Shown: positions 8,016 through 9,182 of the stretch, one piece after another | Layout: each line of letters opens with the position of its first letter | How positions within the stretch are numbered: position 1 is the stretch's first letter | Source of the DNA: a virus | Taxonomy: Duplodnaviria; Heunggongvirae; Uroviricota; Caudoviricetes | DNA length: 9,244 bases | IMG/VR virus record: IMGVR_UViG_2778261537_000007 | Direction: 5' to 3' (one strand) | Made by a program: the position numbers and the translations under genes | The notes under the pieces: model-generated | Database searches by the model: none | What the model was told of the DNA's origin: nothing | Seen by the model: only the letters and a program-made list of their open reading frames with translations

Positions 8016-8588
8016 TTACAGCTCAGATTGAGTTTGGCGCTTCTCTACAGGATGATAACGATAAATCGTCGATACACCGATATCGTAAATAATTGCCAAC
8101 TGTTTCCTGCTGTAGCCATTTTCGATCAACCTCGCTATTTGCTCATGTTGTTCTTTTGTCAACTTCGGGCGACGTCCGCCAATGCGTCCCTGTTCGCGTG
8201 CAGCTGCCAGTCCGGCCAGTGTTCTCTCAACAATTAATTCACGTTCCATTTCTGCTAAAGCACCCATGACATGAAAAAAGAAACGCCCCATGGGTGTTGA
8301 TGTGTCAATACTGTCTGTCAGACTACGGAAATTAACACCTTTTTCCCGCAACTCCTCTATAAGCGTGATAAGGTGTTTCATACTTCTGCCAAGCCTATCC
8401 AGCTTCCAGACAACCAGCGTATCTCCTTCTGATAACGTTCTGAGCAGCTTTTTCAAGCCTGGTCTGGCTGACTTTGTTCCGCTTATTTTATCTTCAAAAA
8501 TCAGTTCACATCCTGCGCAGTTCAGTGCATTTCTTTGTAAATCTGTGTTTTGGTCATTTGTTGACACACGAATGTAGCCAATTTGCAT
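8016..8588 (-). CDS. serine DNA invertase (Hin/Gin/Cin/Pin/Min family resolvase-invertase)
   Basis: N-terminus MQIGYIRVSTNDQNTDLQ with the catalytic-Ser context, plus VVWKLDRLGRS, FRSLTDSIDTSTPMGRFFFHVMGALAEMERE, GRIGGRRPK and a C-terminal HTH-like region. ORF track starts at TTG 8597; I prefer ATG 8588-8586 (AGG 9 nt upstream), giving 190 aa. Stop TAA 8018-8016. Confidence 0.93.
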   Translation of the reverse strand: MQIGYIRVSTNDQNTDLQRNALNCAGCELIFEDKISGTKSARPGLKKLLRTLSEGDTLVVWKLDRLGRSMKHLITLIEELREKGVNFRSLTDSIDTSTPMGRFFFHVMGALAEMERELIVERTLAGLAAAREQGRIGGRRPKLTKEQHEQIARLIENGYSRKQLAIIYDIGVSTIYRYHPVEKRQTQSEL

Positions 8589-8610: not shown

Positions 8611-8640
8611 TTAAAAATACATCGTTGGTATAGGTAGGGA
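8611..8640. repeat. degenerate tandem copy of the crossover-like site, between the invertase start and site A
   Basis: At a fixed 30-bp offset, 8611-8640 matches 8641-8670 at 20 of 30 positions, including the CGTTGGT core (8623-8629 versus 8653-8659). Confidence 0.5.
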
Positions 8641-8642
8641 TT

Positions 8643-8668
8643 AAGACTAAAACGTTGGTTTAGGGGAA
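8643..8668 (+). other. putative invertase crossover site A at the 5' boundary of tail-fibre segment 1
   Basis: AAGACTAAAACG-TT-GGTTTAGGGGAA, an imperfect palindrome (CTAAA/TTTAG arms). The right half resembles the GGTTT-type half-sites I recall for hix/gix. Contains the in-frame TAA (8648-8650) immediately before the segment's first codon. Confidence 0.55.
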
Positions 8669-9163
8669 GGCTCGGCGCTGCCCGTTGGTGTACCTATTCC
8701 ATGGCCCTCAGCCACACCGCCAACGGGGTGGCTGAAATGCAATGGTGCAGCATTTTCTTCTGAAAAGTACCCAAATCTGGCAAAGGTTTACCCAACGTTA
8801 AAATTACCTGATTTACGCGGTGAATTTATCCGTGGCTGGGATGATGGGCGCGGGGTGGATGCTGGCCGCGCTTTGCTTAATTGGCAGCCACACACAATTT
8901 TGGACCATGCACACTATATGGAATTATGGACAGGGGACGGACTCGCCGCAGGAAGTGCACGGGAAGGCGTAAATCCAGGAATACTAGCTACATACGGTGA
9001 CGGGGGAATAGTTAAAACGGACGAACCCGGTCATAAGGTGCCTTCCTCACTACGAGCTATTAGCTCTCGTAGTGTTAAACGTTATGGTGAAATTAGTGGA
9101 AATGTAGGTACAGAAACTCGCCCTCGCAACGTTGCATTTAATTACATCGTAAGGGCGGCATAA
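8651..9163 (+). CDS. tail-fibre C-terminal (receptor-binding type) variable segment 1; promoterless, start-codon-less cassette
   Basis: Open frame from the TAA at 8648-8650 to TAA 9161-9163 (170 codons). Translation contains …YPNLAKVYPTLKLPDLRGEFIRGWDDGRGVDAGRALLNWQ…, the motif I recognise from invertible tail-fibre C-terminal domains. The ORF track's 8855 GTG start is inside this domain. Confidence 0.8.
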   Translation, partial: NVGLGEGSALPVGVPIPWPSATPPTGWLKCNGAAFSSEKYPNLAKVYPTLKLPDLRGEFIRGWDDGRGVDAGRALLNWQPHTILDHAHYMELWTGDGLAAGSAREGVNPGILATYGDGGIVKTDEPGHKVPSSLRAISSRSVKRYGEISGNVGTETRPRNVAFNYIVRAA

Positions 9164-9182
9164 AAACGTTGGATTTGGAGAA
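9157..9182 (+). other. putative invertase crossover site B at the segment 1 / segment 2 boundary
   Basis: GGCATAAAAACG-TT-GGATTTGGAGAA matches site A at 18 of 26 positions with an identical 10-bp core AAAACGTTGG. It holds the stop codon of segment 1 and opens segment 2 in the same codon register. Confidence 0.55.

What the first reader, a model, noticed from the sequence alone, without database searches (positions are those of the whole stretch)
8611..8668. Tandem 30-bp duplication of the crossover-like site over the likely invertase promoter
8611-8640 and 8641-8670 match at 20 of 30 positions at a fixed 30-bp period, both carrying CGTTGGT. The upstream copy lies only 23-52 bp from the invertase start codon, where the invertase promoter must be. 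A second, weaker invertase-binding site here could give autoregulation of invertase expression, or could be a quasi-site that captures aberrant inversions.
Basis: seen in the sequence. Interest (0 to 1): 0.45.

Follow-up and report, generated by a model that had tools for sequence, protein, structure and literature searches.

The report
Decayed pseudo-site beside Min crossover site
Next to a known DNA-inversion crossover site of a P1-like plasmid lies a weak look-alike that covers the invertase gene's probable promoter, but it lacks the bases the enzyme family recognises and drifts in close relatives, so it is most likely a harmless leftover, not a second binding site.

Summary
8611-8640 and 8641-8670 match at 20 of 30 positions. 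CGTTGGT occurs only three times in the window, at 8623, 8653 and 8683. The right-hand copy (A, 8643-8668) is a known site: it is 25/26 identical to mixMl''L' of the p15B Min multiple-inversion system, in a P1-like phage-plasmid. The left-hand copy (B, 8613-8638) fills positions -25 to -50 before the invertase ATG, where the best, weak sigma-70 candidate lies.

B does not look like a recombinase site. It scores 5 bits on a Min-site matrix, against 21-43 for real sites. It matches 6/15 positions of the published Din consensus, against 9-14 for known sites; 16% of random 26-mers do as well. Both outer recognition triplets are missing. B exists only in the Min clade. In 36 of 54 related viral contigs its core reads ACCAACT or ACCAGCT, while site A's core is invariant in nearly all relatives that have a site. 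No recombinant junctions at B were found. The third CGTTGGT is simply Pro-Val-Gly codons.

Best reading: a decayed pseudo-site or junction relic embedded in the min promoter. Interest is low.

The parts
8016..8588 (-). Serine DNA invertase gene of the Min type (Din family), 190 aa.
   Evidence: Translation. Pfam Resolvase (E 2e-51) plus HTH_7. 73% identical to Mu Gin and about 75% to a P1-like Cin. The near-identical plasmid pJIE250-3 (H17) carries an invertase reported as 98.5% identical to Min of p15B (PMC6906374).
8598..8603 (-). Shine-Dalgarno sequence AAGAGG, 9 nt before the ATG at 8588.
   Evidence: Read directly from the sequence. Conserved in the Min-clade leaders.
8614..8619 (-). Candidate -10 hexamer TATTTT of the invertase promoter (positions -31..-26). 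Inferred, not shown.
   Evidence: Best sigma-70 weight-matrix candidate in the leader, 4.3 bits and weak. Unrelated leader families (P2-like, Mu, L031) place a candidate -10 at the same position, -33..-26, though it is not the top-scoring one in Mu, L031 or L063. The stricter consensus scan found no minus-strand promoter.
8613..8638 (+). Copy B: pseudo-site AAAAATACATCG TT GGTATAGGTAGG, the left half of the reported tandem repeat. It occupies -25..-50 of the invertase leader.
   Evidence: 17/26 identical to site A. Min-site matrix 5.0 bits against 21-43 for real sites. Half-site scores 0.4 and -11.8 bits. Din consensus 6/15. Core varies in sister lineages.
8639..8644 (-). Candidate -35 hexamer TTAATC (positions -56..-51), abutting the outer end of site A. 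Inferred.
   Evidence: The spacer to TATTTT is a suboptimal 19 nt. The alternative -10, TGTATT, has a 17-nt spacer.
8643..8668 (+). Copy A: functional-type 26-bp crossover site AAGACTAAAACG TT GGTTTAGGGGAA. This is the invertase-proximal mix site.
   Evidence: 25/26 identical to p15B mixMl''L' in PMC3241671 Table 3. Matrix score 39.5 bits. Din consensus 12/15. The core AAACCAACGTTT is kept in nearly all relatives that have a site here; rare variants such as AAACCAACATTT occur.
8651..9163 (+). First alternative tail-fibre C-terminal cassette of the invertible region. It reads through site A (NVGLGEGSALPVGVPIPWPS...NYIVRAA*).
   Evidence: Translation. Pfam Phage Tail Collar domain, E 6e-15.
8683..8689 (+). 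Third CGTTGGT. It is part of the codons CCC GTT GGT (Pro-Val-Gly) of the cassette and is not a site.
   Evidence: Matrix score -32.6 bits and Din consensus 5/15. Relatives show synonymous changes here, such as CCTGTTGGT and CGTTGGC. The 30-nt distance from A equals the 10 codons of V-G-L-G-E-G-S-A-L-P.
9157..9182 (+). Second mix-type crossover site, GGCATAAAAACG TT GGATTTGGAGAA, overlapping the cassette stop codon.
   Evidence: Matrix score 31.8 bits. Din consensus 12/15. The repeat finder family D2. Same layout as the internal sites of plasmid pEC00592_4.
8504..8518 (.). Fis-consensus 15-mer inside the invertase gene (+71..+85). Probably part of the recombinational enhancer.
   Evidence: The motif G..YR..W..YR..C is found at the same coordinate, with a nearly identical sequence, in Mu gin. 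The enhancer role is inferred from established knowledge of Gin and Hin and was not tested.

Best explanation
The window carries the invertase end of the Min multiple-inversion system of p15B-type P1-like phage-plasmids. Site A (8643-8668) is the real invertase-proximal mix site. Strand exchange at its central TT joins alternative tail-fibre C-terminal cassettes to the constant part of the fibre gene.

The 54-nt stretch between site A and the min start codon is the gene's leader. It carries a weak sigma-70 promoter (candidate -35 at 8644..8639, -10 at 8619..8614) and a Shine-Dalgarno sequence.

Copy B (8613-8638) is a degenerate pseudo-site sitting in the spacer and -10 part of that promoter. 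It is a decayed remnant of crossover-site or cassette-junction sequence, left by past rearrangement in this recombination-prone region. It is no longer kept as a recombinase target and today serves only as promoter and leader DNA.

Shown: the identity of A, the poor site quality of B, and B's restriction to one lineage and its drift there. Inferred: the promoter position and the relic origin.
For: 1. The system is identified. A is 25/26 identical to mixMl''L'. The invertase is Min-type. A complete relative has at least seven such sites in both orientations, at cassette junctions and at the constant part of the fibre gene.

2. B lacks what the family recognises.
- Min-site matrix: 5.0 bits, against 21-43 for real sites. 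It ranks 4th of 18,438 positions, level with chance hits at 327(-) and 928(-).
- Family half-site matrix: 0.4 and -11.8 bits, against medians of 12.8 and 11.3 for real halves.
- Din consensus: 6/15, against 9-14 for the 13 published Hin, Gin, Cin, Pin, Min and PinB sites scored. Both outer TTC/GAA triplets are absent, and 16% of random 26-mers also reach 6.

3. B resembles A in particular (17/26) rather than the family consensus. That is what a decayed copy would look like, and not what selection for binding would produce.

4. Comparison with relatives. The P2-like, Mu, L089-type and L031 leaders have no second copy. Within the Min clade the central bases vary: AACGAT 18, AACTAT 18, AACTCT 12 and AGCTAT 6 contigs. 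One variant has 29-nt spacing. Matrix scores of the B homologues fall to -1.1, -0.8, -5.1 and -20. By contrast the core of A is kept in nearly all relatives that have a site.

5. B's left arm, AAATACATCGTTGG, resembles the conserved 3' end of the tail-fibre cassettes, AATTACATCGTAGG (...NYIVRAA*), which normally sits just before a mix site. A's invertase-side half also carries the cassette-type TAA followed by an A-run. The shuffle test gives p about 0.01-0.06.

6. No junctions expected from recombination at B were found, in IMG/VR or PLSDB.

7. The best promoter candidates lie at the same distances from the start codon in unrelated leader families. The leader RNA has no stable structure, z = +1.0.
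Against: - The relic origin is only modestly supported (p 0.01-0.06).
- The leader length of 53-55 nt is conserved across families. This fits neither a plain 30-bp duplication nor an insertion, so the way B arose remains open.
- Binding was not measured. Natural Din sites tolerate deviant halves. Site A's own invertase-side half scores only 4.0 bits, and hixR scores 9/15. Weak binding of one subunit to B's CCTACCTATACC half therefore cannot be excluded.
- Among the leaders examined, the window's lineage alone has the base that completes CGTTGGT. That could be a recent gain rather than drift.
- The promoter assignment rests on weak matrix scores (4.3 bits). The stricter scan found nothing on this strand.
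Confidence: 0.6

Rival explanations
1. Pure chance. An AT-rich promoter leader happens to resemble the adjacent site, with no shared ancestry and no function.
For: - About one tandem match of at least 20/30 is expected per 9-kb window (my own binomial estimate, not a tool result).
- An unrelated 17/26 match to A exists at 327(-).
- B's matrix score equals that of the chance hits.
- Its Din consensus score of 6/15 lies within the random bulk.
- TRF does not call the repeat.
- Homologous leaders score progressively lower.
- The third CGTTGGT is explained by codons.
Against: - The chance of a 17/26 match falling inside the 54-nt leader next to A, in the same orientation, is about 0.001-0.004.
- The matches include a contiguous ACCAACG centred exactly on the would-be crossover dinucleotide.
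- There is additional resemblance to cassette 3' ends.
Confidence: 0.2
2. B is a low-affinity Min operator over the -10 and spacer of Pmin. When Min accumulates it fills B, perhaps helped cooperatively by a dimer on A 30 bp away, and represses its own transcription.
For: - B covers -25..-50, exactly the core of the best promoter candidate.
- It keeps the central ACC AA CG and is in tandem with A.
- One half (CCTACCTATACC) is in the top 1.2% of random 12-mers.
- From my own knowledge, not checked here: serine recombinases can autoregulate through sites overlapping their promoters. Tn3/gamma-delta resolvase does so at res, and Hin at hixL has been reported to.
Against: - Both outer recognition triplets are missing, and the second half scores -11.8 bits.
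- Two thirds of contigs with this leader have ACCAACT or ACCAGCT, and one variant shifts the spacing to 29. Yet these lineages keep intact invertases at 92-97% identity.
- P2-like and Mu relatives have a leader of the same length with no such copy.
- A 30-bp centre-to-centre distance (about 2.9 helical turns) puts the two sites on nearly the same face. No cooperative tandem binding is known for Din invertases (own knowledge).
Confidence: 0.12
3. B is a quasi-site that occasionally takes part in strand exchange with inverted mix sites, giving aberrant inversions. The fibre gene would then read ...VGIGRD-stop.
For: - B has the same central dinucleotide, TT, as the mix sites.
- From my own knowledge of work on P1 Cin quasi-sites (titles cited in PMC4134206): quasi-sites with only partial similarity can recombine at low frequency if the central dinucleotide matches.
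Against: - No relevant B-left/true-right junction was found. The 7 pattern matches in IMG/VR are an unrelated gene coding for ...TIHSWFRG....
- No reciprocal junction was found.
- The best-ranked PLSDB matches are all the native 130-bp arrangement in two pieces, among 162 matching records.
- Site quality equals that of random sequence.
- The product would truncate the tail fibre, so this would be a liability and not a function.
- Assemblies cannot detect events as rare as 1e-5 or below.
Confidence: 0.05

Closest known systems
Min multiple DNA-inversion system of plasmid p15B (min invertase plus six mix sites; GenBank X62121; Sandmeier/Iida/Arber)
   Same: - Site A is 25/26 identical to mixMl''L'.
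- In the complete relative pEC00592_4, the site at the constant part of the fibre gene is the same as mixQ''R' apart from a 1-nt loss in that record (TTCCCTAAACC AA GGTAATCAAGAA).
- The internal sites share the CGTTTTTATGCC halves.
- The invertase of a 98.9%-identical plasmid is 98.5% identical to Min.
- The host is a P1-like backbone carrying darA/ddrA/hdf/lyd genes.
   Different: Nothing essential differs; this is that system. Copy B is not among the six published mix sites listed in PMC3241671. I could not read the original p15B papers to see whether the pseudo-copy was ever noted.
Gin/gix of phage Mu and the invertase modules of P2-like prophages (Din family)
   Same: - The layout is the same: the invertase is transcribed away from the invertible segment.
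- The crossover site ends 53-55 nt before the start codon.
- The best promoter candidate is at the same distance.
- There is a Fis-type motif at +71..+85 of the gene.
   Different: Their leaders are unrelated in sequence. They share a conserved TGGCAT(C/G)AT and contain no second site-like copy.
Quasi (pseudo) crossover sites of P1 Cin (cixQ)
   Same: B has partial similarity to a true site, with an identical central dinucleotide.
   Different: cixQ sites were defined by observed recombination. No recombination product of B was found. B also lies in direct repeat only 30 bp from A, so the two cannot synapse with each other.
res of Tn3/gamma-delta resolvase (several recombinase sites over divergent promoters, giving autoregulation)
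   Different: The res subsites are conserved, are bound by dimers and are needed for synapsis. Din invertases use a Fis-bound enhancer instead of accessory sites. B is neither conserved nor consensus-like.

Membership tests
Din-family 26-bp crossover site (hix/gix/cix/pix/mix): copy A, 8643-8668 | [quoted passage not shown] | tested here: met
   A matches 12/15 consensus positions, within the 9-14 range of known sites. It is 25/26 identical to published mixMl''L'. Matrix score 39.5 bits.
Din-family 26-bp crossover site: copy A | It lies at the boundary of an invertible segment, in frame with alternative tail-fibre C-terminal cassettes. Partner sites exist in inverted orientation. | tested here: met
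   The reading frame NVGLGEGSALPVG... runs through A into a Tail Collar cassette. The complete relative has three sites in each orientation plus the site at the constant part of the fibre gene.
Din-family 26-bp crossover site: copy B, 8613-8638 | Match to the dix consensus and to real half-sites. | tested here: not met
   B matches 6/15 positions; the random mean is 3.8 and 16% of random 26-mers reach 6. Half-site scores are 0.4 and -11.8 bits, against 8-13 for most real halves. The Min-site matrix gives 5.0 bits against at least 21 for real sites.
Din-family 26-bp crossover site: copy B | Conservation of the core and central dinucleotide among relatives that share the recombinase. | tested here: not met
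   The core reads ACCAACG in 18, ACCAACT in 30 and ACCAGCT in 6 of 54 IMG/VR contigs with this leader. It is absent from the other leader families.
Din-family 26-bp crossover site: copy B | Bound and cleaved by the invertase, with recombination products observed. | not testable with these tools
   Only indirect evidence is available: no B-derived junctions in IMG/VR or PLSDB. Binding needs EMSA or footprinting.
Autoregulatory operator of a serine recombinase (res-like) | A recombinase-binding site overlapping the recombinase promoter. | tested here: inconclusive
   Overlap with the best promoter candidate is met, since B covers -25..-50. The promoter is only a weak prediction, and the binding-site criterion is not met by sequence.
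Small serine recombinase / DNA invertase (Min): ORF 8016-8588 | An N-terminal resolvase catalytic domain plus a C-terminal HTH_7 domain, with high identity to Gin, Cin and Min. | tested here: met
   Pfam PF00239 (E 2e-51) plus PF02796 (E 3e-15). 73% identical to Gin and about 75% to Cin. A near-identical plasmid's invertase is 98.5% identical to Min.

The most novel reading that the evidence does not exclude
In the p15B/P1-like sublineage a single base change (ACCAACT to ACCAACG) has recently turned promoter DNA into a weak Min half-operator. A Min dimer anchored on mix site A, 30 bp away, could then reach over the -10 and spacer of Pmin and damp its own synthesis. This would be a newly evolving res-like autoregulatory arrangement in a Fis-dependent DNA invertase.
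Probability: 0.1. Interest if true: 0.35.

Novelty: already known. Interest (0 to 1): 0.12.

Why it matters
If B were a working operator or quasi-site, it would show how a DNA invertase limits its own level, or how multi-cassette inversion systems make mistakes. The evidence instead shows an ordinary, well-studied system (Min of p15B) with a drifting look-alike in its promoter.

The practical lesson is for annotation. Similarity to a neighbouring crossover site is not enough to call a second site. The consensus recognition positions and conservation in relatives must also be checked.

A minor useful by-product is a comparative picture of the invertase leaders:
- a constant spacing of 53-55 nt between the site and the start codon;
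- a common promoter position;
- a Fis motif at the same coordinate in this gene and in Mu gin.

Tried and rejected
- A three-copy array with a 30-bp period (8623, 8653, 8683) acting like res subsites. Rejected: the third copy is Pro-Val-Gly codons, varies synonymously in relatives, and scores -32.6 bits and 5/15.
- B as a regulatory RNA or structured leader. Rejected: the leader RNA folds at -5.9 kcal/mol with z = +1.0, and Rfam gives no hit in the window.
- B as a simple 30-bp tandem duplication or insertion. Doubtful, because the leader is 53-55 nt in every leader family.
- Search for junctions produced by recombination at B. The 7 IMG/VR pattern matches are an unrelated helix-turn-helix gene. 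The reciprocal pattern gave 0 hits. The best PLSDB hits for a synthetic junction query are all native, two pieces spanning 130 bp.
- A consensus-strength promoter. The simple scan found none on the minus strand; only weak weight-matrix candidates exist.
- Literature. The p15B papers (PMC329034, PMC53420), the P1 genome paper (PMC523184) and a Hin/Gin review (id recalled from memory) are not held. Full-text searches for invertase autoregulation were mostly noise. Statements on Hin/hixL autoregulation and on the cin/gin promoters therefore rest on my own knowledge and are marked as such.
- One collection scan was wasted on a mistyped pattern that matched only one sister lineage.

Full report
**1. 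What the window is**

The whole window matches hundreds of P1-like phage-plasmids (Punavirus; PLSDB records of 80-110 kb) at 98-99.7% identity. On the minus strand lie darA-operon and lysis genes (ddrA, ddrB, hdf, lydA/B/C). They are followed by a 190-aa serine recombinase at 8016-8588(-), which has Resolvase and HTH_7 domains.

To the right of the recombinase, on the plus strand, an open frame without a start codon encodes a tail-fibre C-terminal cassette with a Tail Collar domain.

The recombinase is 73% identical to Mu Gin, about 75% to a P1-like Cin, and 82-85% to invertases of P2-like prophages. Plasmid pJIE250-3 is 98.9% identical to the window (H17). Its invertase is reported to be 98.5% identical to Min of p15B, and its tail-fibre gene 95% identical to that of p15B (PMC6906374). 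Another P1/P7-like plasmid carries a region 99% identical to the p15B min region (PMC5786510).

Unlike P1 cin, this gene points away from the invertible segment, as Mu gin does.

**2. The observation**

- 8611-8640 and 8641-8670 match at 20/30 positions.
- The repeat finder gives 19/24 for 8611-8634 against 8641-8664.
- TRF gives nothing.
- CGTTGGT occurs only at 8623, 8653 and 8683, an exact 30-nt ladder.

Treated as 26-bp sites (12 + 2 + 12), the three are:
- A = 8643-8668, AAGACTAAAACG TT GGTTTAGGGGAA
- B = 8613-8638, AAAAATACATCG TT GGTATAGGTAGG
- C = 8673-8698

B lies 25-50 nt upstream of the ATG at 8588.

**3. Copy A is a known site**

On the invertase-sense strand A reads TTCCCCTAAACC AA CGTTTTAGTCTT. 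This is 25/26 identical to mixMl''L' of p15B as tabulated in PMC3241671. The one difference, T/C at position 7, is also polymorphic among relatives.

A complete relative, pEC00592_4, has three further sites in each orientation at cassette junctions, plus the site at the constant part of the fibre gene. That last site is the same as mixQ''R' apart from a 1-nt loss in that record. The window itself holds a second site at 9157-9182, over the cassette stop codon.

**4. Copy C is coding sequence**

In the cassette frame, site A encodes N-V-G-L-G-E-G-S-A-L and C encodes P-V-G. The 30-nt offset is therefore ten codons. Relatives change C synonymously, for example CCTGTTGGT and CGTTGGC. C scores -32.6 bits and 5/15.

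**5. Copy B is not site-like by the family's own criteria**

I built a weight matrix from 34 distinct real Min-clade sites.

| Sequence | Score (bits) |
|---|---|
| Real Min-clade sites | 21-43 |
| A | 39.5 |
| Site at 9157 | 31.8 |
| B | 5.0 |
| Unrelated position 327(-) | 5.4 |
| Unrelated position 928(-) | 4.6 |

I also built a family-wide half-site matrix from 71 distinct invertase-proximal sites. Real halves have medians of 12.8 and 11.3 bits. B's halves score 0.4 (top 1.2% of random 12-mers) and -11.8.

[quoted passage not shown] B matches 6, and 16% of random 26-mers do as well. Both outer TTC/GAA triplets are missing from B.

So B resembles A in particular, at 17/26, but not what the enzyme family recognises.

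**6. Is the resemblance more than chance?**

The per-position probability of at least 17/26 identity to A is 2e-5 to 7e-5. One such chance hit exists elsewhere in the window. For the roughly 58 positions of the adjacent leader this gives about 0.001-0.004. The resemblance is therefore probably not pure chance, but it is far from overwhelming once after-the-fact selection is allowed for.

**7. Relatives**

I took the upstream regions of 167 related invertases from IMG/VR, GTDB genomes and phage records. The core of site A, AAACCAACGTTT, is essentially invariant across roughly a hundred loci with 80-100% invertase identity; a few rare variants occur. Sequence diverges immediately beyond the core.

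The P2-like majority and Mu have unrelated leaders sharing TGGCAT(C/G)AT, and no second copy. Two other leader families (L089-type and L031) also lack it.

The B-type leader occurs only where the invertase is at least 92% identical. A pattern scan of IMG/VR found 54 relevant contigs. The six bases at the centre of B are AACGAT in 18 (the window type), AACTAT in 18, AACTCT in 12 and AGCTAT in 6. So CGTTGGT is complete in only one third of them, and the would-be central dinucleotide itself changes in one lineage.

One variant has a 1-nt deletion between A and B, giving a period of 29. Matrix scores of the B homologues are -1.1, -0.8, -5.1 and -20.

**8. Where the promoter probably is**

A simple sigma-70 weight-matrix scan of twelve representative leaders gave only weak candidates (3.5-6.8 bits). 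In most of the leader families scanned, though not the L089-type or the Yersinia leader, a candidate has its -10 at -33..-26 and its -35 at -56..-49. In Mu, L031 and L063 it is not the top-scoring candidate; the best Mu match, TTTCCT-16-GATAAT, lies within gixR itself.

- P2-like and Mu: a TGn-extended CAT(C/G)AT.
- This window: TTAATC (8644..8639) and TATTTT (8619..8614).

The stricter scan found nothing on this strand.

The leader length from the end of the site to the start codon is 53-55 nt in all families. I infer two constraints: the promoter, and the geometry between the crossover site and the Fis-bound enhancer inside the gene. A Fis-consensus 15-mer lies at +71..+85 both here and in Mu gin.

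B thus occupies the spacer and the -10 of the likely promoter.

**9. Where B may come from**

In the Min cluster every internal site is preceded by the conserved cassette end ...AAT TAC ATC GTA AGG GCG GCA TAA (N-Y-I-V-R-A-A-stop). The stop and an A-run form the outer half-site.

- B's left arm, AAATACATCGTTGG, matches AATTACATCGTAGG at 12/14 positions.
- A's invertase-side half, AAGACTAAAACG, has the same TAA followed by an A-run.
- In shuffles the mean alignment score is reached 19 times in 2000, and the maximum 118 times in 2000.

This is suggestive, not proven. In the cassette frame B reads K-Y-I-V-G-I-G-R-D-stop.

The region to the left of A therefore looks like the eroded 3' end and junction of a cassette fused to the min leader. 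The constant leader length argues against a plain 30-bp duplication. I cannot reconstruct the event.

**10. Test for use as a quasi-site**

Inversion between B and an inverted mix site would create AAAAATACATCG-TT-GGTTTRGG... junctions and the reciprocal ...AAACG-TT-GGTATAGGTAGG.
- IMG/VR has 7 matches to the first pattern, all in an unrelated gene.
- It has none to the second.
- A synthetic 100-nt junction query against PLSDB matched 162 records. The best-ranked are all the native arrangement, two pieces spanning 130 bp or more.

Assemblies cannot see rare events, so this only excludes fixed or frequent products.

**11. Other readings checked**

There is no stable RNA structure in the leader and no Rfam family in the window.

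**12. Verdict**

The tandem resemblance is real. Its right half is the known mix site of the p15B Min system. Its left half overlies the probable min promoter.

The left half fails every sequence-based test for a Din site. It is confined to one clade, and it varies at the very positions that are invariant in true sites. The most likely account is a decayed pseudo-site or junction relic with no present recombinase function (confidence about 0.6). The alternatives are:
- pure chance, about 0.2;
- a weak autoregulatory operator, about 0.12;
- an active quasi-site, about 0.05.

The system is already known and the finding is of low interest.

Noticed in passing
window 9157-9182: A second mix-type crossover site (GGCATAAAAACG TT GGATTTGGAGAA; 31.8 bits; Din consensus 12/15) overlaps the stop codon (9161-9163) of the first tail-fibre cassette. 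The window therefore reaches into a multi-cassette, Min-type invertible cluster.
   Followed up: partly
window 8504-8518 (invertase codons 24-29); Mu gin L005 at the same gene coordinate: A Fis-consensus 15-mer, GCGCAGGATGTGAAC, lies at +71..+85 of the invertase gene. It is nearly identical in sequence and position in Mu gin (GTGCAGGATGTGAAC). It is probably one Fis site of the recombinational enhancer. A second site 48 bp away was not found with the strict motif.
   Followed up: partly
leaders of L002-L167 (upstream of the invertase start codons): The distance from the end of the crossover site to the invertase start codon is 53-55 nt in five unrelated leader families. P2-like and Mu leaders share TGGCAT(C/G)AT at about -36..-28, which looks like an extended -10. 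In Mu the best sigma-70 match (TTTCCT-16-GATAAT) lies inside gixR itself.
   Followed up: partly
window 8016-8588 compared with L004 (phage JL22 cin): The invertase here is transcribed away from the invertible segment (Mu gin layout). P1-type cin is transcribed towards it. The closest leaders outside P1-like plasmids sit in contigs of about 36 kb that look like P2-like prophages. This suggests the Min module was exchanged between P2-like phages and P1-like plasmids.
   Followed up: no
L022, L028 and L031 leaders (plus strand, cassette frame): In sister lineages the frame running from the invertase start region through the B homologue and site A into the cassette has no stop codon (…LFREKYIVGIGRDKDENVGLGEG…). 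L031 even has an in-frame ATG (MLLDSSVFEVKNVGLGEG…). The window has two TAA stops there. Whether a free-standing cassette protein is ever made is unknown.
   Followed up: no
L017 (IMGVR_UViG_649989947_000012): This invertase is 98% identical, but its upstream region is completely different, with no crossover site within about 120 nt. The match starts at residue 3, so it may be a rearranged or truncated copy.
   Followed up: no
L168 (pEC00592_4) around 968-1010 and 5440-5470: Single-base losses in G or T runs inside sites and cassettes (GGGGAA to GGGAA; cccgttgtgtacc) shift the fibre reading frame at the junction with the constant part. These are either real frameshifts or homopolymer assembly errors.
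   Followed up: no
plasmid hits H12, H30, H36: Some otherwise near-identical plasmids carry an insertion annotated as an RNA-guided endonuclease TnpB family protein within the stretch that matches this window.
   Followed up: no
window 327-352 (minus strand): AGGACGACGACGATGATTTGGGTGAT matches site A at 17/26 and scores 5.4 bits on the site matrix. This is a chance look-alike, and it calibrates how little copy B's score means.
   Followed up: yes
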